From the NCBI GenBank assembly GCA_964016885.1, contig OZ024740.1, positions 289,602,001-289,666,000 of the forward strand: a DNA stretch of 64,000 bases, read 5' to 3'. Both the position numbers and the translations under genes were made by a program. The DNA comes from Eledone cirrhosa (taxonomy: Eukaryota). The notes under the pieces were generated by a model that did not search any database, was not told the origin of the DNA, and saw nothing but the letters and a program-made list of their open reading frames with translations. Position 1 is the stretch's first letter. The number at the start of each line of letters is the position of its first letter. Below are positions 5,202-52,301 of the stretch, piece by piece.

Positions 5202-5298
5202 GTATGTATGTATGTATGTATGTATGTATGTATGTATGTATGTATGTATGTATGTATGTATGCGTGTATGTATGCATGTATGTATGTATGTATGTATG

Positions 5299-5609
5299 TT
5301 CTTCTGGTTTCATAATTTCACAAATTTTTGCTACTAGAGAGTCGGTGTCTAACATAGTTACAAGACTTTCTCATTGGAATTTACACAACATCAACTAGGT
5401 AGATATGTATGCATGTCTGCATGTATTTCTGCAGGTATGGATGTTATTGTATGTGTGGATGTGTATGCTTTGAGTTACATGTTTCCATGTGCATATGCTT
5501 AGTATCTGTACATGTGTAATGCAGTTATTAAACCCAGAATTTTTGGAATGTTTTACATATTTTTACTGTTCTACTATTGGATTGTACTTGTAATTTCCTA
5601 ACTAGTCGT
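5299..5609 (-). mobile_element. R4/Dong family 1, short 3' fragment
   Basis: LVRKLQVQS..VKICKTFQKF plus the same 3' UTR; between (TATG)n tracts. Confidence 0.85.
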
Positions 5610-5618
5610 GTATGTATG

Positions 5619-6864: not shown

Positions 6865-6865
<1 letters not shown>
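5619..6865 (-). mobile_element. R4/Dong-type RLE element, divergent family 2, 5'-truncated
   Basis: ORFs 6582-6830 (LYFSRKEGGRGL) and 5632-6570 (CRLCKTKIEDVSHIVASC, RHD, RADIVVWD..VVEISCP..KEDIY); different 3' UTR; GTATGTATG at its 3' junction. Confidence 0.88.
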
Positions 6866-6895
<30 letters not shown>

Positions 6896-6949
6896 TGTAT
6901 GTATGTATGTATGTATGTATGTATGTATGTATGTATGTATGTATGTATG

Positions 6950-9900: not shown

Positions 9901-10926
9901 TTGCTAAGGCATATAAACAGGCGTTGATTTGCCAAAATCTTGGGGTTTTTATCCGTCGTAAATATTCATCCCCTATTTCGTCAATAACACGTAGTATTTC
10001 ATTATTTGGTTTTTATTCACCATTGTCAATTTTAACACTTTCAGCCAGAGAGATATTTATACATGAGTTAATTTCTCTCTGAAGATTTCGTTGAGGAAAA
10101 TTTTCAATTGTTTATAATTTTGATTATCATTATCGATAGTATTTTTCACAACAGTCGAGGTAGACTCGGATGGTATACGTGGTGTCACATTTATTCGATT
10201 TTTATTATTATTTCTTCGATTATTATTATTATCGATAGTGTTTTCCCCAGCACTCGAGACTTAGATGGTACAGGTGGTGTCAAGTTTCTTACAAGCATAG
10301 TTGTTTCAAGGCGCTGTTCGACCTGGCTGCTAGGAAGTCTAGTAGCATGGCGATCTGTAGCACGTGTTGTTGATAACATGTTTATTGTGGGGGACTTACA
10401 ATTAATAATATTTATCTTATTTTTACGTTCAACAAACGTCGCTTGTTGGCGTAATTGTTTCGCTGTGAAATAATTTAGCTCTGGGTACATTTCGTCCCAG
10501 TGTAGCTTCATTCTATTCATATAGCCAATGGAGGGATTGTTTTTTGCCATTTTATAACAATTAAATAAATCATTATTAAGTTCGCAACTCCAAGAGAAAT
10601 GCGATTTATAATTTCGGTTTCTTCTGTAGCTACAACTGAATAAAGTTTGATTACCTTCTTTGTTATTTGTCTTCGATACTTCCTTAATTTTGTTGTTGAT
10701 GTTGTGTTCAGCCATGCTGTTTTTAGCAAATCCTTGTAAAATGAATTATGTATTTAGTCGGATATCTCTACGAATTCGAATAAAAGGTGTTTTCAGAAGG
10801 GATAGTTAAAAGAATAACCAGTTATTCAACCTGGCTGTAGTTGTGGCATTACTGTCGGAGATAGTATTCATCTTAAATTTAATAAATAGTCTCCCACGCC
10901 AAAATATGCGACTGATCGCGTTGACT
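6950..10926 (-). mobile_element. Near full-length R4/Dong-type RLE element (family 1), frameshifted
   Basis: N-terminal motif WSCELNNDLFNCY..GYMNRMKLHW (10191-10715); RT motifs PGRD, NYRPIAC, LDYKKAFNSVPHSW, QGDSLS, FVDDLKLY; C-terminal RLE ending at 7178; (TATG)n on both sides. Confidence 0.93.
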
Positions 10927-13376: not shown

Positions 13377-13467
<91 letters not shown>

Positions 13468-13633
13468 AATTTATATCTAGTAACATTTATATACACACAG
13501 ATGCATATCAATGCTAGCAAATATATAGGTTTTGTCTTAATAACAGTGTGGTTCAATGCATGGGGTTGCAGAACAATAATATGAGAGACGTAAAATAAGA
13601 AAATTATAAAATTAACTTACTTACTAAAAAATC

Positions 13634-13716
13634 ACTTCCAACTAATTAGTTTCTGGAATGGAGTAAATATATTTTCCGAAGAAATTTATAGAAAATCATT
13701 CCGTCATCAGGAAAGT
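13634..13716 (-). ncRNA. Type I hammerhead ribozyme
   Basis: Reverse complement of the motif at 14032-14114. Confidence 0.8.
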
Positions 13717-14031
13717 CTTTTTTCGTATAGGTCTCCAGGCATAGCGAGGACACTGGAAACTTATTAAAAAAATAATTCAGTGGAATGGAAATAGCGATGC
13801 GTGGACTGGATTCCAAGCCATTGAGAAAATCACTGCCTCTACGTCCGTAGCAAATTCAAAAAGAATCAATCACGTGACATCGAGGTCAATCAGTGGAAAG
13901 CGAGTGGTTATTAAGACAGCGGCCAGCTTACTACCATAGTAGCAGTCATGGCCAAATATTGCTCGACAAATGAATTGGAGATAATTATAAGGAATTTATA
14001 TCTAGTAACATGGAGACCTATACGGAAAAAG

Positions 14032-14114
14032 ACTTTCCTGATGACGGAATGATTTTCTATAAATTTCTTCGGAAAATATATTTACTCCATTCCAGAAACT
14101 AATTAGTTGGAAGT
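14032..14114 (+). ncRNA. Type I hammerhead ribozyme
   Basis: ACTTTC-CTGATGA-C-GGAATG...CATTCC-A-GAAA-CTAATTAG-TT-GGAAGT; predicted GUU cleavage after 14108. Confidence 0.82.
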
Positions 14115-14159
14115 GATTTTTTAGTAAGTAAGTTAATTTTATAATTTTCTTATTTTACG

Positions 14160-14277
<118 letters not shown>

Positions 14278-17546: not shown

Positions 17547-17595
<49 letters not shown>

Positions 17596-17598
<3 letters not shown>

Positions 17599-18069
17599 TA
17601 ACAAATGGAAACTATATTTATAAAACCATATTTATTTCAAGGACACCAAGTTAAATTATGGTGTGCTTTCATCAGATAAAATATAATTGTTTCTACTTTA
17701 GGCACAAAATTACTGGTAATTTATTTTATCGACCCCGTAAGGATGAAAGGCAAAGTTAACTTTGGCGGGATTTGAACTCAGACCGTAAAGGGACGTAACT
17801 ATGCTAGAAAGCATGGCATCCAACACTCTACCGATACTGCCAAAAAATATAATATAGAGCAGTTTTATAAATAAATATTGACATACCCTTAAAGAATGCG
17901 ACCATTTCTGTTGGAAGCTTGAAATATGTATAATGAAATAAATATGGTTTTATAAATATAGTTTCCATTTGTTAATATATCGTATTTTTACTACAATAAT
18001 TTGTTGAGTGCTTTATATTAGTTATAAAAATATTTGCTTGTTGTATCCCAACAATTTAAATAGAACTTC

Positions 18070-21462: not shown

Positions 21463-21471
<9 letters not shown>

Positions 21472-21531
21472 TAAAAAAATAATGAATAAAACAATGAAAC
21501 AGTTCCTTATATTAAACAAAAAAAGTTCATT
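21463..21531 (-). mobile_element. Solo 69-bp fragment of the PLE family A pLTR
   Basis: Matches about 36080-36148; 3' end in (AT)n. Confidence 0.85.
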
Positions 21532-23380: not shown

Positions 23381-23447
<67 letters not shown>

Positions 23448-23487
23448 GATATATTAACAAATGGAAACTATATTTATAAACCATATT

Positions 23488-23552
23488 TATTTCATTATAC
23501 ATATTTCAAGAACACCAAGTTAAATTATGGTGTGCTTTCATCAGATAAAATA
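23488..23552 (-). ncRNA. Minimal type I hammerhead ribozyme
   Basis: TATTTTAT-CTGATGA-AAGCACACCA..TGGTGTTCTT-GAAA-TATGTA-TA-ATGAAATA. Confidence 0.82.
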
Positions 23553-24869
23553 TAATATAAAGCAGTTTTATAAATAAATATTGACATACCCTTAAAAAAT
23601 GCGACCATTTCTGTTGGAAGCTCCCGGATAGTGGGGTTATACATTTATTAATACTATTATATAAATTAGTTTCGGATATTTTTAAATCAGAGTAGATTTA
23701 AATAAGCCGTTGGGTTATGGAGAAAGAGAGAGAGAGAAAAAAAAGAGAGAGAAAAAAAGAGAAAAAAGAGAAAAAGAGCAAACTCTAAGCGGAAAATATA
23801 TACATATACATATATGTATGTATCTATGCATGTGTGTGAGCGTGTGTGTGTGTGCGTGTGCGCTTGTGTGTGAGCCTGTGCTTGCAGATCTGGAGTAAAA
23901 TCGGTGAGGTAACTACAGTTAAAAAAGGTACTCAATACATCGCGTGTAAGCACCATTATTTAAGATAGAAATGACCTCTACAGGACTAGAAATGTTTCAT
24001 TCATGTGTGTGTGTGCGTGTGTAAGCATACATATTCATACCTCCTAACTTACTGCACATTCAGATATATAGAACGTTTCGCCACCGCTTAGATATATCTA
24101 CATATGCAGAACTATATAGATTAATATATGTAGAATTAAACAGTATATGAAATGCATATGTGAAAAATTATACGAACTAATATACACATGCCCGTACTTA
24201 GACAGACCCTTCATCATTGACTCTCTGACACGGTATTTCCATCACAGGTTTATGTACACTGAAAATGGTTCGTAGAAACTGTTTACATCTCTCTATTGCA
24301 ATGACTTTGTATTTTGAAACAGAAAAAATACCTGCTTTTAAAATATATTAAAAATCGCTGCTTAACCTAGAGTTCATGGAAAGCTTTGGAGGGGAAAATA
24401 ACAGAGCTGTTGGAAAGTTTGAAGAGGAAAATAGCATAGCTGAATCCAAAGATCCAGTCTTCAATAATGCTAAGACCAGTAGTTTCTGGGGGCGAGGAAA
24501 GTCGATTAATTCAACCCCAGTACTTAACCAGTAGGATCAAAATCAAAACTGGCCTCAGCATGATTTGAACGCAATAATAATTTTTCCTAAATTTAGCACA
24601 TGGCCAGCAATTTTGGGGAAGGGGAAGGTCGGTTAAATCGGCACCAGTATTTAACTGGTACTTTATTTTACTGAAGGATGGAAGATGGAAAAGTTGGCCT
24701 CCGCAGGACTTGAACTCAATAATAATAGAAACAGCAATAACAAAACATAACACTGCTCACATCCAAGGCACAGAATCTGTGCGCTGTAATGCACCAATAG
24801 CACGCATTTAAAATATGATTAATGATGATTAGAATTAATTATATTGTTTTTTACTGCCCAGTTTTAACC

Positions 24870-26290: not shown

Positions 26291-26667
26291 GTTTCTACTT
26301 TAGGCACAAGGCCAGCAATTACCCAGTGCATTACTGGCACTTTATTTTATCGACCCCGTAAGGATGAAAGGCAAAGTCAACCTCGGCGGGATTTGAACTC
26401 AGATCGTAAAGGGACGTAACTATGCTGGAAAGCATAGCGTCCGACCCTCTACCGATACTGCCAAGTAATAAACACAGTAAATTATGTCTAAAATTACGAG
26501 GGTAGAGAGACCACGTTGGTTTGACAGATTTAACCTGAAGCAAACGGTAAATATACGACAAAATTTACTGTGTTTATTACTACATATATTATATAATGCT
26601 CAGTATTTATACTTTGAGCTTGTTAATTACAGGGTATTAATATGAGCATCTAACTCTGCCTGTTATT

Positions 26668-26710
<43 letters not shown>

Positions 26711-26715
<5 letters not shown>

Positions 26716-27173
26716 TGTTAAGCCTTGGATTAACAGTGTATGCAATGGAAGGTCTTATGTCTTTCAACAAGATTCTGCATCATCACACAAGTCTCAAATG
26801 ACACAAGAATGGATGGCTGACAATTTGCATGATCACATCACCCCCAACATTTGGCCTCCTAATTCTCCAGATCTAAATCCACTCGACTCTTATGTATGGA
26901 GCATTGTTGAGAAAAATGTCAATGAACACTCCCATAGCACCAAAGATTCTCTGAAAGCCGCCATAATTCGAGTCATGTCCGATATGTACAAGGACCACTT
27001 AATCCGAGCTTGTAAACGATTTCAACCTCACGTAGAGGTAGGTATTGATGCTTATGGTGATTTTATTGAATGAAATTATTAAATTGATAATTTATCTTTA
27101 TGTTTATGTTATTTTTATAAGAATACAGTTTTTTTCTGTTATATATTATATATATATATATTTTTTAAAACCA

Positions 27174-30748: not shown

Positions 30749-33700
30749 ATTTCATTGATTGGCCACAAGGGCCAACATATAGGGGACTACAAAAGACTAG
30801 GACAGTAGGGTTTTACAGAAAAATCGAGTAAACAATATGAATAACAATAACAAAGTAACAATAAAAATACAACAAGAAAAATTCCCCAATAGGGGGTATG
30901 ACCACCCATGGTTCGCTCAGGTACCCCACCAATCCTAAATGACCCGACGCTTCGAGAGCACCCTGGAAGGGCACCCCTCTCCTCCTCAAATTTACCCACC
31001 TACAGGCGCATGACCAGAGTAGGCTCACTCACATGGGCCATTCTCGCCATATTCACACACCTTTCAGCAAATGTACTAGGGGGGTGGGGGGGGGGGGGGC
31101 AGCACTTCTCTCTCCACTCTCACCTTCCTTTCTAAGTGAAACTTGAAAAAGTTGATGAGGGATTGGCCGAAGAGAACATCGTCTGTCTTCAGTCCTTTCA
31201 ACCTCGTCCACCATACAACCTCTTTCGCTACTGCCACCAGACAGAGGAAAATTTCCTGGAAGGCGGCGGGTCAATCTTCACTATGGACTCGGCCGATAGC
31301 CGGATCCGTTCTACACGCGACAACAGCTGTTCGACATAACTCCACAAGTCAGTAACGCACGGACACTGGACAAGTGCGTACAGAACGGTTTCGTCGCTCT
31401 GCGCGCATCTCGGGCAGGTCCGTCTGACAGCACTTCCGTACCTGTAGAGTTTATCTCGAACCGGTAGTTCCCCCCGGTAGCACTGCCAAGCGAGGGATTT
31501 TTGGAAATTATCCATCGTCCTCGGCTCGAAAGTCCTCCGGAACAGACTGGTTAGTTCGACTTCGTTGACTCCCAGAGCCTCTCCGAGTGCGGCATTTGCG
31601 CACTTGCCCACCACTAATCCTCTATAGAATTCGAGAGTGGAAGTTCCACTGACCACCTTTCCCGCCTGGTAGAGGGCAGTGAGTGCCTGGCAACATTGCA
31701 GATGCTAGTCACCCAGTCTCGGTCTCTTCTTGACCCATGACTGCAGCTCAGTCAAAGAAAAGAGCTGCGGAAAGGCCCGTCTGACAAACGGCGACCACAC
31801 CTGTTCACCGTTTAGGCAGAATATCTGGAGATGCCGCAGCCTCAGCGCGTGTCTGCGCATCATTAGCCACGGCATGCCCAGCCCTCCACGAAGAGGGTGC
31901 TGGCAGACGATGGACCGTCTCACCAGCGGAACCTGACCCCTCCACAAGAATTTGAAGAGGAGCCGCTCCAAGATGGCAAGGCGCGAACGGGGGCAAGGGA
32001 CAACGGTCAGACGGTAGTAGATGACGGACGCGATGTACGCGTTCGCCACCTCCGCCCGACCTTTCAGTGATAGCTTACTCCCAGCCCATTTCTGGGTGAG
32101 ACTGGCTACCCTGCCCGTCACCTCATCCCAATTCTTATCCACCTGTAGGTCTGGCCCGAAACAAACCCCGAGCAACTTTACCGGTCCGTCCGCCCAGCGC
32201 CTAACAACGCTGTTGGACGGCATGGACTTGCCTCTCCAGGTGCCGAGTTGCAAGCCCACCGCCTTTTCCAGGTTAAATTTTGCTCCCGTCAACCTTTCAT
32301 AATCCTCCAATAAGTTGCCGACCACCTTGATTTCTGAGGTGTCTGACACCATCACGGTGATGTCGTCCGCATAAGCCGACACAGCCTTTCCGCGTCCCGG
32401 TTCGAGCGGGATGCCCTGCAACAGCTCCAGCTTCCGCAGTAAAGGCTCGAGAGTCAATAAGTACAGAAGGGAGGAAAGAGGGCACCCTTGACGGACCGAT
32501 CGGCAGACCTGAAACGGTTCCGAGAGGTGGCCATTAATTCTGACCACCGAGCAGGTGACCTGTGCATTGCAGCGATCCAGCTTCTGAAGACGGGGCCGAA
32601 GCCAGCCGCCTTGAGGACAGCCTCCAGGTACCGATGGTCGACCCTGTCGAATGCTTTCGATTGATCTAAATTGATCAGAGGCCCACGGAAGCCACGTTTA
32701 CACCCTACCCTCTCTATGATGTATTGCATTAGGTGGAGTTTGTCAACCTTTCTATTTTTCTCTAACGCTACTTCTTTGCTAAATTCTATCGACATTACTC
32801 TAATCTCTCTTTTGAGAGCCCCCCACCATCTATTGTTGACGACTCCCCCTGTCAACTTTTTCTTAACTAAATTGTTGGCCTGGTCCCTGTAAGCTTACGT
32901 GCCGGAAATGATATGTTTAGCTTCCAGTAACCTGGTCCTAACCTACGCGTCTTATCTAGGTCGACCATACAGATCACAAACTTGTGATCTGAATAGGCGA
33001 CCGTTTTAAAACGTGGACAGCTTACACTATTTCTGTCTATTTTCCTAATGAATATCCTGTCTATATACGATCTAGATGACCCTATGCAGTTAGTCCAGGT
33101 CCACACTGGCGCATTAAGGAAATCTAGTCGGTACCTGTCAGACAGTTGGAACTGGCTGATCAGGTTCTTGAGGCTTTTGCACCCCCCGCTCCTATCGGAT
33201 ACTCCCACACAGTCCCAACGTGCGTCTAAGATGCCGTTCCAGTCCCCCGCTAACAGTAAAGGGCGAGACGTACCCAGAAAGGTTTCCAGGCGTCTAAAGA
33301 AGTCCGGCCGTCCTGCCCCCGTAGGGGCGTAGACGGCCACCAGTCTAAAGGCACCACCTTCGTTATTGTTCACGTCCAGGACCACCAGCTTCCCGCCTGG
33401 ATCCCGGAAGATCGACCTTACCTCGAGATCCAGGCCTTTTCCTAAACAGCACTGCCACTCCATCTCCCATTCCAGGCCGACTAACAGATGCAAAGATCTG
33501 ATAGTCGTCGAAAATGGGCGTTAGTGAGCGCGTGTTGGAAATTCTGGTCTCACTGACGGCAACTACATCCATTTCTAGAGACCTGAGGTCGTTGAGCAGG
33601 TGACCCTGCTTCCAGGACGATCCCAGGCCTCGAACATTTAAACTTCTTACTCTTAATACGGCCATGTTGGCAGGCTAAAAGAGAGAGGAAAGGTTTACTT

Positions 33701-34230
33701 AACTTCCGGACTCTTGTGAAGGTCGGGTTGTTCGACCTCCATAGTTGGTGGGATTTCCTTTGGGAACCCCTTTAAAAGTCTTGAAGTGGGATTTACGTTC
33801 GGGGTTCCCACGTCTCGAGGAAAGCTGTCTCGTATCTCTTTGTATAAATTGAGCGACATTCGCACCAGAAACAAATCTTCCGGCACGCGAAATGTGCTCG
33901 ATTTAAAAATTCCCCCCTCTTTTTGTATTTCTTCACTTCGTGCTACGAGGGCCATCAGTTCCTTGTTGGCCCTCCTGACGAGCACGAAGTTTTGTATGTT
34001 TTGTTGGTGTGATTTTATTTGTTTGCGTGGCTGTTGTGGGGATGGTTTTGATGGTGTTGTTTCGGTTGTGTCTGTGTTTGTTGTGAGTGCGGTGTCTGTG
34101 GTTTCAGATGTTTGTGTGTGTATTTGTTCTTGCGTCTGTTTAGGTTGTTTGCGTTTGGGAGATTCTGGTGGTGATGGTGGTGTTGATGTTGATGTTGTTG
34201 GGAAGATGTTTGCATGGGTGGTGTCTGCAT
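30749..34230 (-). mobile_element. Tx1/L1-clade non-LTR retrotransposon, decayed
   Basis: ORF1 end (33695-33985); APE endonuclease SLNVRGL..SET..VYAP..GDWN..IDRIF..SDH; RT LDQSKAFDRVDH, RQGCPLS, AYADD; zinc-finger CPRC..ETV; internal deletions. Confidence 0.92.
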
Positions 34231-34240
34231 TTTTTTTTTA

Positions 34241-34620
34241 TCAGATATTGTATTAATTGAGAAAGAAAGCCAACAGTGTTGGATCATAGATATTGCCTGT
34301 CCAGCTGATAACAAGTTATGTGATAAAGAAGGAAAAATATTGATAAATATGACAAGTTAGCTTGAGAGGTTAAGCAGTTGTGGTCACTGAAAAAGGTGGT
34401 AGTAATACCAATAATAGTTGGAGTGTTGAGAAGTACATTAAACAAATAGGGATTGAACACTTACAAAAAACAGCATTGCTTGGAGCAGCTCGAATACTCC
34501 GGATGGAACTCGAAAAATAAAGAGTATTACTTCAGTTCACTGGTAGTGAACAGCTAACACTGTAATACATATTCAGCGTTAGAACCTGAGCGAAGAAACA
34601 CAATAGTGATAATAATAATT
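34241..34620 (+). pseudogene. 3' fragment of an RLE non-LTR element ending in (AAT)n
   Basis: DIVLIEKESQQCWIIDIACPAD...KYDKLA*EVKQLW..VIPIIVG. Confidence 0.75.
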
Positions 34621-35014
34621 GTTTCTACTTTTGGCACAATACCAGCAAATTATCCAGTGCATTACTGGTACTTTAATAATAATAATTGTTTCTACTCTTG
34701 GCACAAGGCTAGCAATTACTCAGTGCATTACTGGTACTTTATTTTATCGACCCCGTAAGGATGAAAGACAAAGTTAACCTCGGCAGGATTTGAACTCAGA
34801 TCAGAAAGGGGCGTAACTCTGTGCTACAAAGCATATTGTCCGACCCTCTACCGATACTGCAAAACCACCACTTTAATAATAATAATGACACTAACAGTGA
34901 ATGAATACTCGTCACTATTGACGATGAGTATTCTAGTTGTTAGATAAATTGAATTACTCAGAATATATCACAGACATTAACGACAGAATCATCGTGACTT
35001 TCTGTGAGACAAGT

Positions 35015-35812
35015 TTAACCGTTGAAATTACAGGTACAATCCCCGCGATGTGTTTTCGCATAGTTACATCTAATATTTTTAAACCAGTTAATTACCTGGG
35101 AGGTGTTTTCCCAGAGTGGTAAAATAACGTGTTTTCTTATTTGTGGGATGACTCTATCCAAAATTTTTTTGCTAATTATTCCAATATCTGATTTGGAGGG
35201 ACATATAAGTCTTATAGAAGGATTTGAGTTAAAGTTTGATTTATGATCCTTCAGGTTGAAGTGTGGTCTTTTCAATGCCAAAGGTTCAGTTCTATCTTCA
35301 ATGTTTAGTTTTTTTACTATGTTGTGTGTTTTGTTGTTGATGTTGGTGAGTGACGCATTATTAGATTTTTTATAATTTTTCCTGAGTTCTTTATATATGA
35401 ACTCATTATAATGTTCAATATCCATGTGATACAAGTTACCAGTTTTGTCCGAGTGGACATGGATTTTTTTAGACTTTTTTAGGTCCAATAGGGTAGAATC
35501 AAGGTCCTTTTGAAAGACGGATTTATACTTTTTAAATTTGAGGTGTTTAATTAAATTAAAAAGGTCTTTCTCAAAGTCTTCAAGTAAAGAGTTGTGTGGT
35601 GGATTCTTGTAAGTATTGAAATCATACATATATTTCCGATCTGCATGTTTAGATTTTTTATCGAAGTGGTAGGCCCTCCATCTAACCCTTCTGATAAAAT
35701 TATTAGTTTTTTGAATCATAAGGAGTAAGAAGTCATCCTTAGAAGGTATTGGTATGTTCTTTAAAGAGGTTCCCAAATATTGTTTTTCCATTGTGATATG
35801 GATGGTGGACAA
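35015..35812 (-). CDS. N-terminal part of the PLE family A ORF (homology ends at 35064)
   Basis: SLKNIPIP..RRVRWRA..HSDKTGNLY; overlaps the start of ORF 39802-41886 almost identically. Confidence 0.88.
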   Translation of the reverse strand: MSTIHITMEKQYLGTSLKNIPIPSKDDFLLLMIQKTNNFIRRVRWRAYHFDKKSKHADRKYMYDFNTYKNPPHNSLLEDFEKDLFNLIKHLKFKKYKSVFQKDLDSTLLDLKKSKKIHVHSDKTGNLYHMDIEHYNEFIYKELRKNYKKSNNASLTNINNKTHNIVKKLNIEDRTEPLALKRPHFNLKDHKSNFNSNPSIRLICPSKSDIGIISKKILDRVIPQIRKHVILPLWENTSQVINWFKNIRCNYAKTHRGDCTCNFNG

Positions 35813-36142
35813 TTGAAAGAGCTCAACTAAATGTATATGGGTTTACAAAATCATACATATATATGTATATACATAAATATAAAATTAATACACACATACA
35901 GTACAAAAATACGAATATTTCCGTGAAAAATAGGAGCAAAATTATGTAGATAAATCTACCAAGAGTTTACGGTAGTGTCCAATCCGTATGGAGAACTCAA
36001 TGTAGTCCGGATATCATGGAAAGAAGAGATGCAATGAAAAATCACTTTCGGTGAAAGATAAACGGAATACAGAGTCAAGATAAAATATTAAAAAAATAAT
36101 GAATAAAACAATGAAACAGTTCCTTATATTAAACAAAAAAAG

Positions 36143-36297
36143 TTCATTATTTAACGATCGTTTCTAGGATATATATGTGTTAGAATTGGCATGCATATTC
36201 AACAGATCTATGTACAAAATTATACAAAATTATACAAACTATCAAGATTAAATATACATACCAAACACACATATATGCCGTCTTCAGAAATAATGAA
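36143..36297 (-). ncRNA. Type I hammerhead with 116-nt stem II (PLE A pLTR)
   Basis: Reverse complement of 42641-42795; on the coding strand, upstream of the ORF. Confidence 0.85.
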
Positions 36298-36899
36298 ATA
36301 TATTTATTGATAATAACAACAATTCAAAATTTCAGGTCCGTTTGGGAACGGAGTTCAAATTGACCAATGAAAATACAAAAAATTTTATGCAGTTTGGTGT
36401 GTGTATATACATGTAATTAACTTCATACACATATTTATACAAAGATATATGCTCATATGCATACGCATGCCAAAAAGATGTATGCAAATACAAAAATTCA
36501 AGGCTAATGTCTCTGTAAGTTTATAATCCACAGATAAAATGCGTATAGACACATAAATATGAAATAAAAGTATACACATATTCACATACTCACACATATC
36601 CGTACACTTACACACACACGCGCGCATATGCATAAACATACACACAACCACGAACATACACACACACACATACCCCCACACACATATATATGTGGATATA
36701 GTATTATCATAAGCATATGGATATTAATGCACGCTCATATACACTGCAACACACATTTAGATCAAGATACAGAAATTAGGTGGGAGGGGGGGAGAGGTCA
36801 GTATTCAACGGTTTCGGCAGACTGCTTATTTATAGATGTATCTATAAACTTAGATATAAAAAGAAAAGAAAAGAAAAAGAAAAAAGAAAAAAGAAATAT

Positions 36900-37157
36900 A
36901 TCAAGAAAATATATATATATATATATACATCTACACATACAACACACACACACACACATATATAAACATATACATATATATATACACACATACACACATA
37001 CATATATATATATACACACATATATACACATATATACACACACACATATATACACACACATATATATATATACACGCACATATACATACACATACATACT
37101 CATATACATACAGACATACACATACATACATATATATACACACATATATACATACAT

Positions 37158-37188
<31 letters not shown>

Positions 37189-37406
37189 TACATACACACA
37201 CATACATACTCATACATAGACATAGATATATATTCTCACACACATACGCACTTACATATACGCATATATACAAATACATACGCATCCATATATCCGTATA
37301 TACATACAAACACCACTACACTCTCACACAACTCAGACATACAAAGAAAAAGGTATATACATATACACATATACACACATAAATAGAGATACATATACAC
37401 ATACAC

Positions 37407-37471
<65 letters not shown>

Positions 37472-37627
37472 TATATATATACATATATGTACACACACAT
37501 ACACATACATACATACACACATACACACATACATATATAGTCACACACACACACACACCTACACATACATACACATACACATATATAAAGATATATATAC
37601 ACACACATACACACACACACATATATA

Positions 37628-37664
<37 letters not shown>

Positions 37665-37980
37665 TATATACATATACATACACATATACATACATACATA
37701 CACATACATACATACATATACACACATATATATACACACATACACATATACATACATACACACACACATACATACACACACATACATACTCATACATAGA
37801 CATAGATATATATTCACACACACATACGCACTTACATACACGCATATATACAAATACATAGGCATCCATATATGCGTATATACATACAAACACCACTACA
37901 CTCTCACACAACTCAGACATACAAAGAAAAAGGTATATACATATACATATATACACACATAAATAGAGATACATATACAC

Positions 37981-38017
<37 letters not shown>

Positions 38018-38485
38018 CCTACACACACATACAACCATAAACACACATACAAACACATACATACACACATATATACATATATATACACACACACAAAAAC
38101 ACACATACACACATATATCTACATATATATATATACATACACACCTTCACATATATATATATACACATAAGTTATATTATAATAATAAATAATATATACA
38201 TATACACATACAAATATATATACATACATAGACATACACATATATATACACACACACACACACTCACATATATATGTGCGCACACGTAGACATATACACA
38301 TACACACATATACACATAAACATATACATGTGCATACATGTACATACACACATATATCCACATAGATACGAAGATACACATATATATAGAGAGACATACA
38401 TATACATACACATATATACACACACATACATACACACATATATATACACACACACATACACGCCCACACACACATACATATATAC

Positions 38486-38528
<43 letters not shown>

Positions 38529-38536
38529 TATATACA

Positions 38537-38598
<62 letters not shown>

Positions 38599-38600
38599 AC
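36900..38600. repeat. (AT/AC)n low-complexity tract in the PLE A 3' UTR with an internal duplication
   Basis: 37201-37400 is repeated at 37781-37980 (offset 580). Confidence 0.9.
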
Positions 38601-39801
38601 CATACATCCTTATTTGCATGGGCATATATGTATTTTTATACTCAGATATAAAGATCCAAACATATATACACCTACCTACATATATATTCATACATACACG
38701 CTTACAAATACAGATAATAATAGTATGGGGGAAAGGGGGGGTGGAGAAGGGGATTATAGTGAATATATGTTTCAAGAAACATAGAATATTAATCTGTATT
38801 TGGATCTCAATATATGTTTTTACATAGTTTCAGTGTCATGAAATGCAAGAAATAAGGCAAAATTATGCATTTCAATATAAGTATACCATTAATTATAGGT
38901 TAACTAAACTAAAGATAGTTAACATATTGATTTCTAAGGTGTAAATTAGTTATGTTTATAATATTTGAAGCAGAATTTTGAAGTTAAATAGTAGTAGAGT
39001 ATTAATTATAGTATAACTAAATTAAAATTATTAACGTTATGGTATCAATATTAGGAAATGAATTTAGTAATAGGGAAAAAACAAATAAAGTATTACATCG
39101 GTAGTAGAATATAAATTATAGGTTAACTAAATTAAAAATTATATATTAATTTCTATAGTATATGTTAATTAGGTATATAATAAATAAAACAGATATTGTA
39201 TTTTATCAATAGCAGAATATAATTATATGCAAACAGAAATCAAAATTAATACATATACATATACATATATATACATATATATATATACACATATATATAC
39301 ACATACATACACATACATATACATACATACATATACATATTTTTTCAAAAATTGCAAAGAATATATTAACTAGGTATACATCCAAAACACATCCCATTCT
39401 ATGATTACATGACACTCTGCAATCCGTCTGTATTAGGATACTAATTTTAAGCCAATTAAATTAAATTTTTAGGTTGACTAAATTTAAAACCAAATTATAA
39501 ATATATTTCTAAAATGTATATTAATTAGGTCTATAATACTAAAGATTATTTCTCTGTCATTGAATACACGATATTTTGTTATATTTTATCTGTAAAGGAA
39601 TTTTAATAAAGGGTTAAATAAATTAAAATTAATCTATAAATTAAATTACTAAGTATATATTAGTAATATTTAAAGGTTTTTCACAATTTATGATTACACA
39701 ATATTTTATATTCTCATCTGTAGTAGAATTTTAATTAAATTAAGTTTATAGGTTAACTAACATTTAAATTAAATTATATATTAATTTCTAAAATAATGTT
39801 A

Positions 39802-41886
39802 TTAATTAGGTTTATAATATTTAAATGTTTTTTTTAGTTTATGATTACACGATATAATTAATTCCTGTCGTTTATTTAATAGGATATCCTTAGATTTCAT
39901 TATTTCAAATAGTTCTTGGGAACATAATCTACATTCATTTCTATTATTTTGATAAGGGGTGGCTCTTTTGAGCACACTCCAGGTCAAATCATATTCTATA
40001 TTCTTATTTTTATAACTATTGATTTTTTCTGCTAGAGAAGTTGTATTAGCCAGTGCGGCATTTTTAAAACTATGCTTGTGGGTATTAAACCTTGTCTTAA
40101 AATTGTTAGAAGTAGCTCCTATATATGAGCAAATAGAATCTTTAGTTTTAACATTACATTTATAGACTATGTTGTTAACAAGACAATTCCCTTTTAATGG
40201 GCAGTTTGCTTTGTTTCTACAGTTACAACCTTTCGTTAATTCTGTATTTGAGGAGATATTATGGTTAGTTTGATGTATTGGTGGTATACTTATGGTTTTC
40301 TTACATTTATATGCATTATAGGCACTTATATTTTGTTTTATGTTATTTGTTGTTGAGTATGAGAATTTAACTGTAGACCTATTTAAGATTTGATGGTATT
40401 TGTGGTTTGGCGGGAAGTTTTTCTCTAGGATATAAAAAAATTTTTTAGCAATATTATCCTTAATTTGTAAATTAAATGGAGCATTATACCAAGTAACCCG
40501 TCTATTACGGTTTCTATGTTGTTTATTATTTTTATTATTTTTATAGGTTGTATCGTGATGTTTACTAGGAGGATTAATGTTAATGATCTCACCACAACCA
40601 TTTTTAGTTATATTTGTAGATTTAGGTGTTTTATCTTTTTTATTAGGAGTTTTATTATTAATATTTATTAGAGTTGTATGATGAGTAGTTTTTTGAGAGT
40701 TACTATATTTTATATTAGAAGATTTGGTATTTTGGGGTATAGTGTGGGTGGCATTTAGGTGTGTACTTTTCATTTGGTGTTTGTTGGTAATATTAGGTTG
40801 TATGTTTTTAGTATTTTTAGTAGAAGGTATATATTCTAATCTATTTTTGTGGCCACTTCTATCTAGAGCTTCGTTATAGAAGGTCGCATTTTTATCAAAT
40901 ACATCTTGGTTAGAAGAAAGGTTAGAAATTCTAAGTGATATATTATATGCAAGGTTTTTAAGGATAGATTTAGAGTGATTAGATTGTGAATGTATGTAAT
41001 GTAAGTTTTGGTTTGGTTTATGGTAAGGTTGGTAGATACCCGTAGCTAAATCTAAAGTTATATCTAGGAAATTTACTACTTTACTTGTTTTTTCAAAAGT
41101 AATATGAAGATTATAATAGTCTTTAAGGAAAGTTCTAATATGTTTTTTGTTTTTTTCTATTTCTGAAAGGCTAAGGTTGTTAGAAAGAAGAAGACAGTCA
41201 TCACGATATAAACCACCTTTAAGGTGGGGAAAGGAGGCATTTATGTTGAAAAGGAGAAAGAGGCCCACAAGATCAGTAATTTGGGCGGAATCGCTTGAAC
41301 CCATAGTAATATCAAATAGATTACTATATGTGTTTCTGGTCCAGTATTCATTCTGAAATTCAATAAGTGTTAGTCTAGCATGTGTAATAATATTAATGTC
41401 ATCCAAAGTTAAGTTAGATCTATTTTTAGCAAATATCAATGCTTTGTTCAGGAGTATAGGTGATATAGAAGAATAGTAATTATCTATATCAAATTGTAGA
41501 AATGAAGCAGAAGATTTACATCTAATATTTTTAAACCAGTTAATTACCTGGGAGGTGTTTTCCCAGAGTGGTAAAATAACGTGTTTTCTTATTTGTGGGA
41601 TGACTCTATCCAAAATTTTTTTGCTAATTATTCCAATATCTGATTTGGAGGGACATATAAGTCTTATAGAAGGATTTGAGTTAAAGTTTGATTTATGATC
41701 CTCCAGGTTGAAGTGTGGTCTTTTCAATGCCAAAGGTTCAGTTCTATCTTCAATGTTTAGTTTTTTTACTATGTTGTGTGTTTTGTTGTTGATGTTGGTG
41801 AGTGACGCATTATTAGATTTTTTATAATTTTTCCTGAGTTCTTTATATATGAACTCATTATAATGTTCAATATCCATGTGATACAA
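39802..41886 (-). CDS. PLE reverse transcriptase plus GIY-YIG endonuclease (5'-truncated, uninterrupted 694 aa)
   Basis: QFDIDNYY, TMGSSDSA, LYRDD, VNFLD; CNCRNKANCPLKGNC linker; IVY..YIG..FKTRFNTH; CRLCSQE..LLNKRQE. Confidence 0.95.
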   Translation of the reverse strand: MYHMDIEHYNEFIYKELRKNYKKSNNASLTNINNKTHNIVKKLNIEDRTEPLALKRPHFNLEDHKSNFNSNPSIRLICPSKSDIGIISKKILDRVIPQIRKHVILPLWENTSQVINWFKNIRCKSSASFLQFDIDNYYSSISPILLNKALIFAKNRSNLTLDDINIITHARLTLIEFQNEYWTRNTYSNLFDITMGSSDSAQITDLVGLFLLFNINASFPHLKGGLYRDDCLLLSNNLSLSEIEKNKKHIRTFLKDYYNLHITFEKTSKVVNFLDITLDLATGIYQPYHKPNQNLHYIHSQSNHSKSILKNLAYNISLRISNLSSNQDVFDKNATFYNEALDRSGHKNRLEYIPSTKNTKNIQPNITNKHQMKSTHLNATHTIPQNTKSSNIKYSNSQKTTHHTTLININNKTPNKKDKTPKSTNITKNGCGEIININPPSKHHDTTYKNNKNNKQHRNRNRRVTWYNAPFNLQIKDNIAKKFFYILEKNFPPNHKYHQILNRSTVKFSYSTTNNIKQNISAYNAYKCKKTISIPPIHQTNHNISSNTELTKGCNCRNKANCPLKGNCLVNNIVYKCNVKTKDSICSYIGATSNNFKTRFNTHKHSFKNAALANTTSLAEKINSYKNKNIEYDLTWSVLKRATPYQNNRNECRLCSQELFEIMKSKDILLNKRQELIISCNHKLKKTFKYYKPN

Positions 41887-42640
41887 GTATATATATGTGT
41901 GTGTGTATATATGTGTATATATGTGTGTATATATATATATGTATGTGTGTATGTGTGTATATATATATGTATATGTTTATATATGTGTGTGTGTGTGTGT
42001 TGTATGTGTAGATGTATATATATATATATTTTCTTGATATATTTCTTTTTTCTTTTTTCTTTTTCTTTTCTTTTCTTTTTATATCTAAGTTTATAGATAC
42101 ATCTATAAATAAGCAGTCTGCCGAAACCGTTGAATACTGACCTCTCCCCCCCTCCCACCTAATTTCTGTATCTTGATCTAAATGTGTGTTGCAGTGTATA
42201 TGAGCGTGCATTAATATCCATATGCTTATGATAATACTATATCCACATATATATGTGTGTGGGGGTATGTGTGTGTGTGTATGTTCGTGGTTGTGTGTAT
42301 GTTTATGCATATGCGCGCGTGTGTGTGTAAGTGTACGGATATGTGTGAGTATGTGAATATGTGTATACTTTTATTTCATATTTATGTGTCTATACGCATT
42401 TTATCTGTGGATTGTAAACTTACAGAGACATTAGCCTTGAATTTTTGTATTTGCATACATCTTTTTGGCATGCGTATGCATATGAGCATATATCTTTGTA
42501 TAAATATGTGTATGAAGTTAATTACATGTATATACACACACCAAACTGCATAAAATTTTTTGTATTTTCATTGGTCAATTTGAACTCCGTTCCCAAACGG
42601 ACCTGAAATTTTGAATTGTTGTTATTATCAATAAATATAT

Positions 42641-42795
42641 TTCATTATTTCTGAAGACGGCATATATGTGTGTTTGGTATGTATATTTAATCTTGATAGT
42701 TTGTATAATTTTGTATAATTTTGTACATAGATCTGTTGAATATGCATGCCAATTCTAACACATATATATCCTAGAAACGATCGTTAAATAATGAA
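42641..42795 (+). ncRNA. Type I hammerhead with 116-nt stem II (PLE A pLTR)
   Basis: TTCATTATTT-CTGAAGA-[116 nt hairpin]-GAAA-CGATCG-TT-AAATAATGAA; perfect 10-bp stem I. Confidence 0.87.
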
Positions 42796-42849
42796 CTTTT
42801 TTTGTTTAATATAAGGAACTGTTTCATTGTTTTATTCATTATTTTTTTA

Positions 42850-42919
<70 letters not shown>

Positions 42920-45364: not shown

Positions 45365-45737
45365 CACAGAGGTATCCATGTAAGTTGTGGGGTCTATACT
45401 GTATGAAGAACTCAATGTAATCCATATGTTGAAAATGTTGTAGGTTAAGATAAATCTCAGAAAACAATAAAACATTAAAAGGAAAACAGAGTCATGATAT
45501 AGGTTAAAACAATGAAATAAAAAATCAAGTCATTAGAGATATACTTCACTGCTTTACGATCGTTTCTAGATGGTGATAATACATTGTATCTATACTCAGT
45601 TATTGATCTATGTAAGTTTACAAACTATCAGATAGAGAGAATATTTACTTACATGCATATCACCAGCTGTTTTCAAAAGCAATAATAATTTTATTCAATA
45701 ATAATTTTACTCAGAATTAGTATCATGTCCATATTTG
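45365..45737 (-). mobile_element. PLE family B pLTR, inverted copy
   Basis: Matches the reverse complement of 50586-50780; shares gaactcaatgta with the family A 5' region. Confidence 0.8.
45545..45685 (-). ncRNA. Type I hammerhead variant: U3-A8 core, 103-nt stem II (PLE B)
   Basis: TTATTGCTT-TTGAAAA-CAGCTGGTGATA...TATCACCATCTA-GAAA-CGATCG-TA-AAGCAGTGA. Confidence 0.78.
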
Positions 45738-45762
45738 TCTATTTTTTTCTTTTTATAATTAA

Positions 45763-46581
45763 CTAGCAGTAAAGCCCGGCGTTGCTCGGGGTCGCTCAGT
45801 AGCTGTGTTAAAGTTACAATGTTAAGTTTCTTTCTTGGCTTAAAAACTGCAGTGTCTACTGTGCAGACTTGCATGTGGTGTTTTTGATTAATATTCCCTC
45901 AACCAACAATATGCCTTATGAAGTTAAGAAAACATAACGATAACCCGAATGTTATAACAAAAGAGGATGCTGGGGATAAAAACTGCACTGGTTATTTATT
46001 AACAAAGATCGAAAATGTAAACACTGCAACGCAGAGGAAAACATTAGCGTAACCAAATTATCAGTTATGTCTGTCTGCACGCCTATATCACCTCTCTGCA
46101 CGACTGTCTGTCTGCACGCCTAACGAAATTTACAGATACATATATTTTAAATAAACTTATATAATTTTTGCTTTTTTTTACGAAATATTTGCTTGTTTTA
46201 AATAGTTTTTAAATAGACTTGTTTTCAAGTAAAAATATTGTTTTAAAAGGCTTGTTTTACGTAGTCTTTAAATCGTGTATTGTGTTAATGTCATTTTAAA
46301 CGCTGAGAAAACCAGCGTAATTTTTTTAATTTTTGCACGCAGACGCTCAATGTAAACAGAACAAAGGGAAATAACTAATCACTTACGCTCAAACATCGAT
46401 ACATTATATTCGATTTCGTCAGATAGGGCGGGTCAATTTGAAATATTTTTTTTCCGATGTCTTCGCTAGGGCTCAATGTACAAGTATAGCAATTTCGGTG
46501 CAATTCCGTGAGAGATTCTAAGAGGAGATGTGTGCCAAAAATCGATAGACAGACAGACAACCTCAGTTTTATATATATAGA
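45763..46581 (-). mobile_element. Non-autonomous Helitron, about 820 bp
   Basis: A|TC 5' end, hairpin cccgagcaacgccggg, CTAG|T 3' end, no TSD. Confidence 0.9.
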
Positions 46582-46795
46582 TTATAAAAAGAAAAAAATA
46601 GATTTTAAGTTATCGTGGAACACCATTCTACAAAAAACTCCATATCTTGGAAACAGGAAGGAATGCAGATTATGTTCAGGCGAGATCTTGGAAATTATTA
46701 AATCTAAGGACGATTTATTAAATAAAAGACGAGAATTGATCATAGTCTGTAATCACCGTATACGAAAAACATTTAAATACTATAAACCTAATTAA
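46582..46795 (+). pseudogene. PLE family B ORF 3' end (C-terminal GIY-YIG region)
   Basis: LSWNTILQKTPY..KECRLCSGEILEIIKSKDDLLNKRRELIIVCNHRIRKTFKYYKPN*, homologous to the family A C-terminus. Confidence 0.9.
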
Positions 46796-49837: not shown

Positions 49838-50621
49838 CATATATAAATGAAAGGTATAGAAAGGTATAGAAAACACTGCAGCGAAAAGCCACCAGCACTC
49901 CATAATATATATACATATATGTATGTCGATGTGTATATGTATATATGGGGTATAGATGTGTATGTGTGGATATAGATGTGTATGGATATGTATATATATG
50001 ATTATATGCATGCGTGTGGATGTATATTTTGGTTTGATATCAATATAACTGTACCTCTCTCTATATGTGGTGTGAATATATGCACTTTGTAGACTATGAA
50101 ATTTATGTGTTTTAACTATGCCAACATGTAGTTATCTGAGTTTGATTGTTTATGCATAAACATATTTAGTAATATTTTAGAGCGTATAATATGTTATATT
50201 ATACTGAGTGCAATTTACCACACCGTCCTATATTGTGTTGGTTAAGTTGTATATTATCGCATTACTATATCTCATTATCTTATTATAATTTTCATCTTTT
50301 AATATACTATCTTTCCTAGCCATAGATTTAATTTATATTCACCTTAAAACTCAATACAACACTAATCACCATTTATTTTGACATTCCTTTTAAATTCACT
50401 ATACAAGATACATTCAACTATCAGTTTGACAATCCTCTCCCTTCCTAATAGATTTTTATGCCATTTCTACTAACACCTCTCAACCATTTCTTTCAAAGGG
50501 TCATGACCTCAACTAAAGTATATTACTTTTCATCTTAACACCATATGAAAAAAACAATTTGATTCGTTAGTTCATCAACTACCTCCAAATATGGACATGA
50601 TACTAATTCTGAGTAAAATTA

Positions 50622-50732
50622 TTATTGCTTTTGAAAACAGCTGGTGATATGCATGTAAGTAAATATTCTCTCTATCTGATAGTTTGTAAACTTACATAGA
50701 TCAATAACTAGAAACCATCGTAAAGCAGTGAA
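50622..50732 (+). ncRNA. PLE B hammerhead variant (U3-A8), damaged copy
   Basis: TTGAAAA core; 30-nt deletion in the 3' arm of stem II; palindrome changed to CCATCG. Confidence 0.65.
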
Positions 50733-50787
50733 GTATATCTCTAATGACTTGATTTCTTATTTCATTGTTTTAACTTATATACATATA

Positions 50788-50877
<90 letters not shown>

Positions 50878-51082
50878 AGTTAAAACAATGAAATAAAAAA
50901 TCAAGTCATTAGAGATATACTTCACTGCTTTACGATCGTTTCTAGTTATTGATCTATGTAAGTTTACAAACTATCAGATATATATTTATCCTTATCGAGC
51001 CCTCTTTGGATTTTAGTCTTCAAATTTATTATTATTACTATTTGGCTCCCTCGGTCGAGCACTCTATTGACTTATATTCTTC

Positions 51083-51440
51083 ATGCAGAAACAACATCTG
51101 AATATTTTTACAAAGAACTTACCCGTACCAAGCAGGAAAACATACCTAAAACTCCTGATACAGAAAACAGATGCGTTCATTAAAAAGTTGCGTTGGCGTG
51201 CCTTTTATTTCGATAATCAGAGAAAAGCAGACAACAAACAGGATAAATTTGGGTTTAAAACCTATAATAACCCTTAGAAAATGATGTCTTGGAACTCATA
51301 CGGAGTATCAAATTTCGGAATAGGAGCAATTATTTCCAGCAGAACCTGAAGAATAGAATCCGTTCTATTAAGGATTCTAATGCCGTGCACGTCCATTCCG
51401 ACAAAACTGGCAATCTATATCAAGTGGAGCGCAGTACTTA
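51083..51440 (+). pseudogene. PLE ORF N-terminal fragment (probably family B)
   Basis: TKNLPVPS..KKLRWRAFYF, then after a deletion ENDVLELIRSIKF..VHSDKTGNLY; flanked by 56-bp direct repeats. Confidence 0.85.
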
Positions 51441-51487
51441 TCCTTATCGAGCCCTCTTTGGATTTTAGTCTTCAAATTTATTATTAT

Positions 51488-51541
<54 letters not shown>

Positions 51542-51850: not shown

Positions 51851-52169
51851 AGTATAAAAGAGAAAACACAGGTAAGCATTAAGAGAAGGATTTTATCCAG
51901 GTATTTACGACCGTTTCATTGGTAAGTGCAACCTTACATTGCTATACTGCAAATAGCAGCCACTCAATTATAATTGTTGTTCAGAATTATTAAGAATTAT
52001 TTCAAGAGTAACTCACTATTTTGAAAATTTGAACTGTGAACAACAATTATAATTGAGTGGCTGCTATTTGCAGTATAGCAATATAAGGTTGCACTTACCA
52101 ATGAAACGGTCGTAAATACCTGGATAAAATCCTTCTCTTAATGCTTACCTGTGTTTTCTCTTTTATACT
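51851..52169. repeat. 133-bp inverted repeat carrying the 3' half of a hammerhead
   Basis: Arms 51851-51983 and 52037-52169, one mismatch seen; GAAA-CGGTCG-TA at 52103-52114. Confidence 0.88.
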
Positions 52170-52301
52170 TTATACTCCAAGATTGAACGGAATTCTTACA
52201 AACTTGTGGAGTTACCCCTAACCGTACGTTGAAACCATCCATGAAACTGGCTTTCTTAACCAAAAACTGGATCACAACAAGCCATTTTTTGCTTCTCTAA
52301 C

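What the first reader, a model, noticed from the sequence alone, without database searches (positions are those of the whole stretch)
35064..41888. Circularly permuted PLE: the ORF start lies downstream of its own end
Seen: the minus strand reads ORF codons 127-820, a 3.4-kb 3' UTR, the pLTR hammerhead, then codons 1 to about 250. The 373-bp overlap (35064-35436 vs 41516-41888, offset 6452) differs by one residue (K/E). Joined, the two pieces give a stop-free ORF of about 820 codons. Established: PLEs form partial tandems. Inference: reverse transcription ran more than one unit length on a circular or multimeric RNA, and the family is young.
Basis: partly seen in the sequence, partly recalled or inferred. 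Interest (0 to 1): 0.72.

Follow-up and report, generated by a model that had tools for sequence, protein, structure and literature searches.

The report
Truncated Hydra-clade Penelope-like retrotransposon insertion
This is a young jumping gene of a known kind, laid down as a head-to-tail pair with a flipped piece in front; its gene start follows its gene end most likely because the second copy of the pair is cut short, so it does not by itself show that the element copies from a circular RNA.

Summary
The 373-bp overlap (offset 6452) has one substitution (K/E), and the hammerhead is real (36297-36143). Codon numbers are off by 7: 120-813 and 1-242. The protein has the Hydra-clade PLE motifs. 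The locus is thus the standard PLE layout (inverted truncated copy, 5'-truncated copy, downstream copy), except that the downstream copy stops after 1,016 of 6,452 nt. The family's usual end is 36080, used by two other ends, both on (TA)n. Ten of 12 PLE ends I mapped in the window abut (TA)n; 35064 does not and has no target-site duplication, which favours a secondary break over a true RT start there. More-than-unit copying from a circle was proposed in 2014, permuted Penelope copies were reported in 2013, and RT initiation inside the ORF was shown in vitro in 2024. One locus cannot tell circle from multimer, template jump or tandem insertion. Youth is supported (2 substitutions in 1,342 duplicated nt). 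Unusual for the clade: a 6.45-kb unit (published complete units 2.1-2.7 kb) and a 116-nt helix II.

The parts
42859..42915 (.). (TA)n target tract joined to the inverted arm
41890..42858 (+).
   Evidence: 1 substitution and one 4-nt indel against 36080-37052
42641..42795 (+). Hammerhead copy inside the inverted arm
39802..41888 (-). ORF codons 120-813 plus stop: RT motifs (codons 250, 315, 346), CxCx5C linker (673), GIY-YIG-type EN (693-791), CxxC (771), CxH (799)
41516..41888 (-). Upstream copy of the 373-bp overlap; carries the derived E181
40519..40818 (-). Low-complexity N/K/T-rich in-frame insert between RT and EN (about 100 aa; N 20, K 17, T 16)
38860..39860 (-). Degenerate tandem repeats (68-77% identity) derived from the ORF end, in the 3' UTR
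36909..38596 (-). Microsatellite-rich 3' UTR segment with an internal duplication at offset 580; its last ~145 nt are shared with the inverted arm, so that part at least belongs to the element
36143..36297 (-). Type I hammerhead: 10-bp stem I, 116-nt helix II span, 2-bp stem III with palindromic loop; predicted cut after 36153
36080..36142 (-). pLTR terminus; 36080 is the family's usual 3' end
   Evidence: same end at 42858 and 21463
35792..36079 (-). Start of the next unit (288-nt 5' UTR); its first ~120 nt are homologous to the stretch past the 3' end in a related family
   Evidence: score 38, 0 of 2000 shuffles reach it
35064..35791 (-). ORF codons 1-242 (RWR at 37, DKT at 115, conserved K181); breaks into unrelated DNA at 35064 with no (TA)n and no TSD
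21463..21531 (-). Separate 69-nt copy of the family 3' end, 100% identical, between (TC)n and (TA)n; probably an independent insertion

Best explanation
A young autonomous Hydra-clade PLE inserted at a (TA)n tract in the standard complex form. The GIY-YIG endonuclease nicks both strands and RT extends both target ends, starting at a preferred internal site of a template that runs on past the pLTR (36080). One cDNA stopped after about 970 nt (the inverted arm). The other side became a partial tandem of a 5.8-kb 5'-truncated copy plus a downstream copy, and the two parts joined at 41888/41890. The downstream copy then lost its last 5.4 kb and its own (TA)n flank, by trimming during integration or by a later deletion, leaving codons 1-242 behind codons 120-813. 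The permutation is a by-product of that break. Shown here: the anatomy, the family end, the hammerhead fold and the protein motifs. Taken from the literature on another clade: double-strand nicking and internal initiation. Inferred: the secondary loss. As it stands the locus cannot make the full protein from a linear transcript. The downstream piece stops 8 codons before RT motif A, and the upstream piece lacks codons 1-119 and an upstream pLTR in sense.
For: The layout matches published PLE structure; a Hydra family with a 966-nt inverted 5' copy is listed in the Craig supplement (Penelope-13_HM). The two other ends of this family lie at 36080, on (TA)n. 10 of 12 mapped PLE outer ends in the window have (TA)>=4 within 10 nt, against a 6% background. 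A small hammerhead element at 13461-14169 has the same inverted-arm plus 1.05-unit topology with (TA)n on both ends. At 35064 there is no TSD of 4 nt or more, no poly(A) signal in the 60 nt upstream, and the nearest (TA)>=6 lies 5.7 kb away.
Against: It needs about 12.3 kb of tandem cDNA (or a second insertion) plus a non-homologous loss of at least 5.4 kb in a very young insertion. Recombination between the long direct repeats would more readily have removed the N-terminal piece instead. The empty site is unknown: a nick at the very edge of the (TA)n would leave no TA on this side (the 69-nt copy's 5' junction sits on such an edge). A second end, D 17982, also lacks adjacent TA (its tract is 90 nt away). 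Two of the 12 end coordinates (B 45371, D 23447) were placed partly by eye where TA begins, so that count is somewhat circular. An AC-loop hairpin lies 44 nt before the break, which recalls the PAc RT start site.
Confidence: 0.5

Rival explanations
1. RT really started at codon 242, at an internal site or at the 3' end of a shortened RNA, on a linear template. The template was either a read-through multimer from a tandem master, or a terminally redundant monomer with one homology-guided jump across the pLTR. It ran 6,825 nt.
For: It needs only 6.8 kb of cDNA and no later deletion. PAc initiates inside its ORF, extends both strands, primes weakly from template 3' ends and is modelled on multi-copy mRNA. 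Ends past the usual site occur in this window (family B about +120 nt, element E about +117 nt). Sequence across the unit junction is conserved between families A and B.
Against: No (TA)n or TSD at 35064. Published tails are 30-40 nt and the extensions seen here about 120 nt, not 1,016 nt. No second copy ends there.
Confidence: 0.25
2. One reading: hammerhead-made circular RNA was reverse transcribed for 1.06 laps from codon 242.
For: Intact-looking hammerhead with compensatory changes against family B; seamless junction; model proposed in PMC4209133.
Against: A circle needs two cuts in a multimer, so a multimer already suffices. The duplicated segments differ (K181E is derived: K in 17 of 17 aligned homologues), which one molecule would give only by RT or later error. 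For PAc, cleavage was dispensable and no RNA reads ended at the cut site. The anatomy is equally explained without a circle.
Confidence: 0.1
3. Assembly misjoin at 35064.
For: Tandem and inverted PLE structures are known to misassemble; permuted Penelope contigs were ascribed to collapse in PMC3846280.
Against: No N in the window, and unique DNA on both sides. Collapsing a tandem would delete the N-terminal piece rather than leave it. The overlap copies differ by one base.
Confidence: 0.07
4. The 69-nt end at 21463 is the far end of the same event, with 13.5 kb of host DNA captured or rearranged between it and codon 242.
For: The block 21463-42858 is bounded by two identical, outward-facing family ends on (TA)n; PLEs can carry host DNA between pLTRs.
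Against: The 69-nt copy splits a (TC)n(TA)n compound of a kind found twice elsewhere in the window, which suggests native continuity. PLE ends are dense here (12 mapped in 64 kb). No flank continuity could be shown either way.
Confidence: 0.06

Closest known systems
Hydra-clade PLEs (Craig et al. 2021, PMC8557442), e.g. Hydra-1_Obim and Penelope-13_HM
   Same: C-terminal EN without CCHH; RW(K/R), DKT, CxCx5C, CxxC and CxH motifs; (TA)n target; type I hammerhead near the 3' end with a GUU/GUA-type triplet; inverted 5'-truncated copy.
   Different: Unit 6,452 nt against 2,084-2,729 nt for the complete entries in File S1; 3.7-kb 3' UTR; 116-nt helix II span against short hairpins in File S2; about 100-aa N/K/T-rich insert; RWR for RWK. 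By eye it is not Hydra-1_Obim (different hammerhead and N-terminus); no alignment to it was run.
D. virilis Penelope, partial tandem with inverted terminal repeats (PMC2377424, Fig. 1C legend)
   Same: Inverted truncated copy, 5'-truncated copy, then a downstream copy that starts right after the pLTR.
   Different: The downstream copy here is cut at 1,016 nt, so the second terminal repeat is absent; different clade.
PAc / Poseidon of Anolis (PMC11167929)
   Same: ORF start lying downstream of the ORF end is normal there: RT starts 111-118 nt inside the next ORF, and both strands are extended.
   Different: Here the usual end is 288 nt before the ATG, and the odd end is 728 nt inside the ORF and seen once.
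Adineta vaga Penelope families (PMC3846280)
   Same: [quoted passage not shown]
   Different: Those permuted copies lay on detached contigs with the halves inverted; this one is direct and has host flanks.
Non-LTR retrozymes (PMC4209133 model; bioRxiv 10.64898/2026.07.22.740005)
   Same: Type I hammerhead with a short palindromic stem III; proposed circle-based amplification.
   Different: Those are short, non-coding and tandem; this element is autonomous, with one hammerhead per unit and no circle evidence.

Membership tests
PLE (EN+) | Single ORF with RT and GIY-YIG endonuclease | tested here: met
   By motif correspondence: RT motifs and EN R/E/N positions align with 17 homologues and match the published Hydra alignment by eye. 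Pfam gave no hit for the window protein; RVT_1 hit 1 of 19 aligned members. PDB sequence search 0 hits.
PLE (EN+) | Partial tandem or inverted pLTR arrangement | tested here: met
PLE (EN+) | Hammerhead in the pLTR | tested here: met
   Fold and descriptor. Family B shows the U3-A8 core covariant and two double-sided stem I changes (covariant known). Cleavage activity untested.
Hydra clade | RWK motif, no GxKF/Y | tested here: met
   RWR at codon 37 (conservative variant); no GxK[FY] match
Hydra clade | DKG changed to DKT | tested here: met
   DKT at codon 115, no DKG
Hydra clade | CxCx5C linker; CxxC and CxH flanking the catalytic E and N; no CCHH between GIY and YIG | tested here: met
   codons 673, 771, 799; 14-codon spacing from the GIY-equivalent to YIG
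Hydra clade | Insertion into (TA)n | tested here: met
   2 of 3 family ends; the third is the anomalous 35064 end
Hydra clade | Generally short (<3 kb) | tested here: not met
   6,452-nt unit. A described tendency, not a diagnostic trait.
Hydra clade | Phylogenetic placement within the clade | not testable with these tools
   Published reference proteins could be read in the supplement but not loaded for a tree.
Naiad/Chlamys | N-terminal EN, no canonical hammerhead | tested here: not met
   EN is C-terminal and a hammerhead is present
Circle-replicating element (retrozyme-like) | Circular RNA form; end points scattered around the unit | not testable with these tools
   No RNA data and no genome-wide copies; 2 of 3 local ends share one site.

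The most novel reading that the evidence does not exclude
35064 is a true RT start, and this locus is a genomic footprint of an autonomous 6.45-kb PLE copied 1.06 laps from a hammerhead-ligated circle. The 373-bp direct repeats would also make it a latent master: recombination between them would release a unit-length DNA circle, or give a tandem dimer, with an unbroken ORF behind its pLTR. The long helix II hammerhead and the permuted 525-nt element at 13461-14169 would then belong to the same circle-based cycle.
Probability: 0.1. Interest if true: 0.65.

Novelty: new member of a known kind. Interest (0 to 1): 0.3.

Why it matters
How PLEs regenerate partial tandems is still open. A young family with near-identical copies, a defined usual end (36080) and a foldable hammerhead would be good material for the test: map all copy ends on a circularised unit and look for circular RNA. 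It also offers an apparently intact Hydra-clade ORF; none of the papers I read reports biochemistry on this clade. This single locus does not settle the question, and its oddity is most simply a truncation.

Tried and rejected
Rfam: no hammerhead hit, only microsatellite-driven miRNA noise; the long helix II probably explains the miss. A hammerhead-like word at 39720 just after the stop was rejected: it is part of the degenerate ORF-end repeats. Naiad (my first guess from memory) was rejected on domain order. Near-identical family members in protein collections: none; best 41-45% identity (000 candidates scored, 5 hits at 36-42%, best full-length 46%), so no intact copy could be shown elsewhere. 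Rest of the downstream copy displaced by a nested insertion: only the 69-nt end lies below 35064. TSD: none. Poly(A) signal before 35064: none. AC-loop hairpin 44 nt before the break: post hoc descriptor, 9 of 30 shuffled units have one or more, and the usual end lacks one, so it is not relied on. RT stopping at the hammerhead cut: the 69-nt copy starts 4 nt after it, but the arm, the long copy and the B and D copies run through theirs, so it is weak. A-to-I editing as the source of the two A/G differences: polarity is known for one site only, and the 5' G there is a disfavoured context (recalled), so it was dropped. The bacterial promoter scan was not informative. The structure prediction had not finished after 10 collection calls, so no fold search was run. 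No eukaryotic genome, read or RNA collection was available; viral and metagenome contigs were closed; genome contigs (prokaryotes) was not used as irrelevant. Repbase, Dfam and the O. vulgaris repeat library could not be searched, so the family may already have a name.
Full report
OBSERVATION. Self-BLAST gives 35064-35436 = 41516-41888: 373 bp, offset 6452, one mismatch, read as K versus E at codon 181. K181 is the ancestral state: K in 17 of 17 aligned homologues, and in 174 of the 178 proteins (of 310 stored) that show the motif. The upstream piece therefore carries the derived base. The hammerhead was missed by Rfam and by a short-helix scan. It was found once helix II was allowed to be long: 36297-36143 on the minus strand, 10-bp stem I, 116-nt helix II span, 2-bp stem III with a palindromic loop, cut after 36153. 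The MFE fold gives the junction (z -5.8, 0 of 200 shuffles), and 1 of 300 unit shuffles gave a comparable motif. A related family (B, 45371-45760 and 50586-50985) has the same ribozyme with the U3-A8 core covariant and two double-sided stem I changes, a covariant described in PMC4209133.

An inverted copy of 36080-37052 lies at 41890-42858, directly against the ORF piece, with one substitution and one 4-nt microsatellite indel. It ends in (TA)n. A third, 69-nt, 100% identical copy of the same end lies at 21531-21463, also on (TA)n. So 36080 is the family's usual 3' end. In sense, the insertion reads: inverted 969-nt end, a 5,809-nt 5'-truncated copy, then 1,016 nt of the next unit, then unrelated DNA. 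The arm/ORF junction is blunt to within 1-3 nt, with an ambiguous 2-nt microhomology in a TA context.

IDENTITY. 519 homologues at E <= 0.001 among 8,000 scored candidates, best 41-45% identity. The best named one is from Argonauta hians, 44% over 354 aa. An octopod host is my inference from this and from recalled repeat style; it is not shown. The protein has RWR, DKT, CxCx5C, CxxC and CxH, a C-terminal EN and no CCHH, which are the features given for the Hydra clade. Pfam and PDB sequence searches gave nothing for the window protein, so RT and EN are assigned by motif correspondence. The structure job did not finish. The unit is 6,452 nt, against 2,084-2,729 nt for complete Hydra entries. 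The excess is a 3.7-kb 3' UTR holding degenerate ORF-end repeats and a microsatellite block with a duplication at offset 580, plus a roughly 100-aa N/K/T-rich insert. That the whole UTR is one unit is inferred; only its last ~970 nt are confirmed by a second copy.

AGE. Two substitutions in 1,342 duplicated nt is 0.15%. At the O. bimaculoides rate quoted in PMC13282606 (0.0036 per Myr) that is about 0.2 Myr (Poisson 95% interval 0.03-0.75). This assumes an octopus host and is an upper bound, since template differences and RT or sequencing errors are included. That paper lists 31 recently active Penelope-like families in O. vulgaris, so a young PLE is not surprising.

MECHANISM. The three-part layout is the published common form (PMC2377424; PMC8557442). 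In PAc both strands are nicked and extended, RT starts inside the next ORF, hammerhead cleavage is dispensable, and the template is modelled as multi-copy mRNA. An ORF start behind the ORF end is therefore ordinary in PLEs; what is odd here is only how far it runs. The sequence just past the family end is homologous between families A and B (0 of 2000 shuffles), so the junction is an inherited continuity and not a chance join. That fits a circle, a multimer or a terminally redundant monomer equally well. The deciding question is whether 35064 is an RT start. Against: 10 of 12 PLE outer ends that I mapped in the window have (TA)>=4 within 10 nt (background 6%). The exceptions are 35064 and D 17982, whose tract is 90 nt away and may follow a tail; two of the 12 coordinates were set partly by eye. 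A 525-nt hammerhead element at 13461-14169 has the same topology (159-nt inverted arm, 1.05-unit sense copy, 26-nt redundancy) with (TA)n on both sides. At 35064 there is no TSD, no poly(A) signal, and no (TA)>=6 for 5.7 kb. For: a real start needs half the cDNA and no later deletion, a nick at the tract edge would leave no TA, ends about 120 nt past the usual site occur in B and E, and an AC-loop hairpin lies 44 nt before the break (post hoc). I put secondary truncation at 0.5, a true start on a linear template at 0.25, circle 0.1, misassembly 0.07, and coupling with the 69-nt end 0.06.

PRIOR ART. More-than-unit reverse transcription of a hammerhead-ligated circle was proposed in PMC4209133 and repeated in PMC6765202. 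Circularly permuted Penelope copies, long 3' spacers and N-rich inserts are in PMC3846280. Seven paper searches showed no description of this family or of a roughly 1-kb extension; repeat databases were not searchable. What I saw of each paper: PMC8557442, passages, sections 3 and 11, supplement parts 2 and 59 and two supplement searches; PMC3846280, parts 1-3 of 5; PMC4209133, parts 1-2 of 4; PMC11167929, parts 1-2 of 4; PMC2377424, PMC6765202 and PMC13282606, passages; bioRxiv 10.64898/2026.07.22.740005, part 1 of 5 (its supplements are closed and could bear on retrozyme-PLE links).

VERDICT. Real feature, correctly seen, incompletely bounded. It is a new, young and unusually long member of the Hydra clade in a standard complex insertion whose downstream copy is cut short. 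It is compatible with the circle model but is not evidence for it. Interest 0.3.

Noticed in passing
window 13461-14169: Small element (525-nt unit, no ORF of 100 aa or more listed there) with a hammerhead-like motif (6-bp stem I), a 159-nt inverted arm, a 1.05-unit sense copy with 26-nt terminal redundancy, and (TA)n at both ends; its two ends lie about 117 nt apart on the unit. A miniature of the focal layout; probably a non-autonomous PLE or retrozyme-like element.
   Followed up: partly
window 45371-45760, 50586-50775, 50877-50985: Related family B: long-helix-II hammerhead with a U3-A8 core. One copy runs about 120 nt past the usual end into sequence homologous to family A's 5' UTR; two copies face each other across one (TA)n and share an internal deletion in helix II.
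   Followed up: partly
window 50986-51495: Family C remnant: a 56-nt direct repeat flanks a short 5' UTR plus a frameshifted ORF N-terminus (about 120 codons, 41-45% identical to family A), ending in (TA)n. Both repeat copies start at the same base, unexplained.
   Followed up: partly
window 23447-23700 and 17593-17982: Family D: canonical short hammerhead (23552-23488). The 17.6-18.0 kb copy has a 65-nt inverted arm and is interrupted by a SINE-like repeat at 17709-17844.
   Followed up: partly
window 46580-46795 (+): Older relative of the EN C-terminus (63% amino-acid, 76% nucleotide identity to family A), 5'-truncated.
   Followed up: no
window 21463-21531: The 69-nt family A copy begins 4 nt after the predicted hammerhead cut site; a weak hint of RT run-off on cleaved RNA.
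   Followed up: partly
window 35827-36079 (-): Possible intron in the 5' UTR: one acceptor-like AG at 35827 and several GT candidates upstream; Penelope has an intron in this position. Untested.
   Followed up: no
window 35095-35113 (-): 6-bp hairpin with an AC-only loop 44 nt before the break at 35064, recalling the PAc RT start stem-loop; post hoc, and absent at the usual end.
   Followed up: partly
window 31228-34237 (-): Degenerate non-LTR retrotransposon with AP endonuclease and RT Pfam hits (L1/Tx1-like by recall).
   Followed up: no
window 4001-10745 (-): Several fragmented non-LTR retrotransposon copies with RVT_1 and zf-RVT hits, nested around (TATG)n tracts.
   Followed up: no
window 26654-27073 (+): DDE_3 transposase remnant (Tc1/mariner-like).
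   Followed up: no
window 34609-34869 and about ten other sites: A SINE-like repeat (tRNA-derived by recall), 85-90% identical among copies; one copy lies 195 nt beyond the 35064 break.
   Followed up: no
window 51932-52170: Long inverted repeat with a short spacer; its extent was read by eye. Possibly a MITE or foldback element.
   Followed up: no
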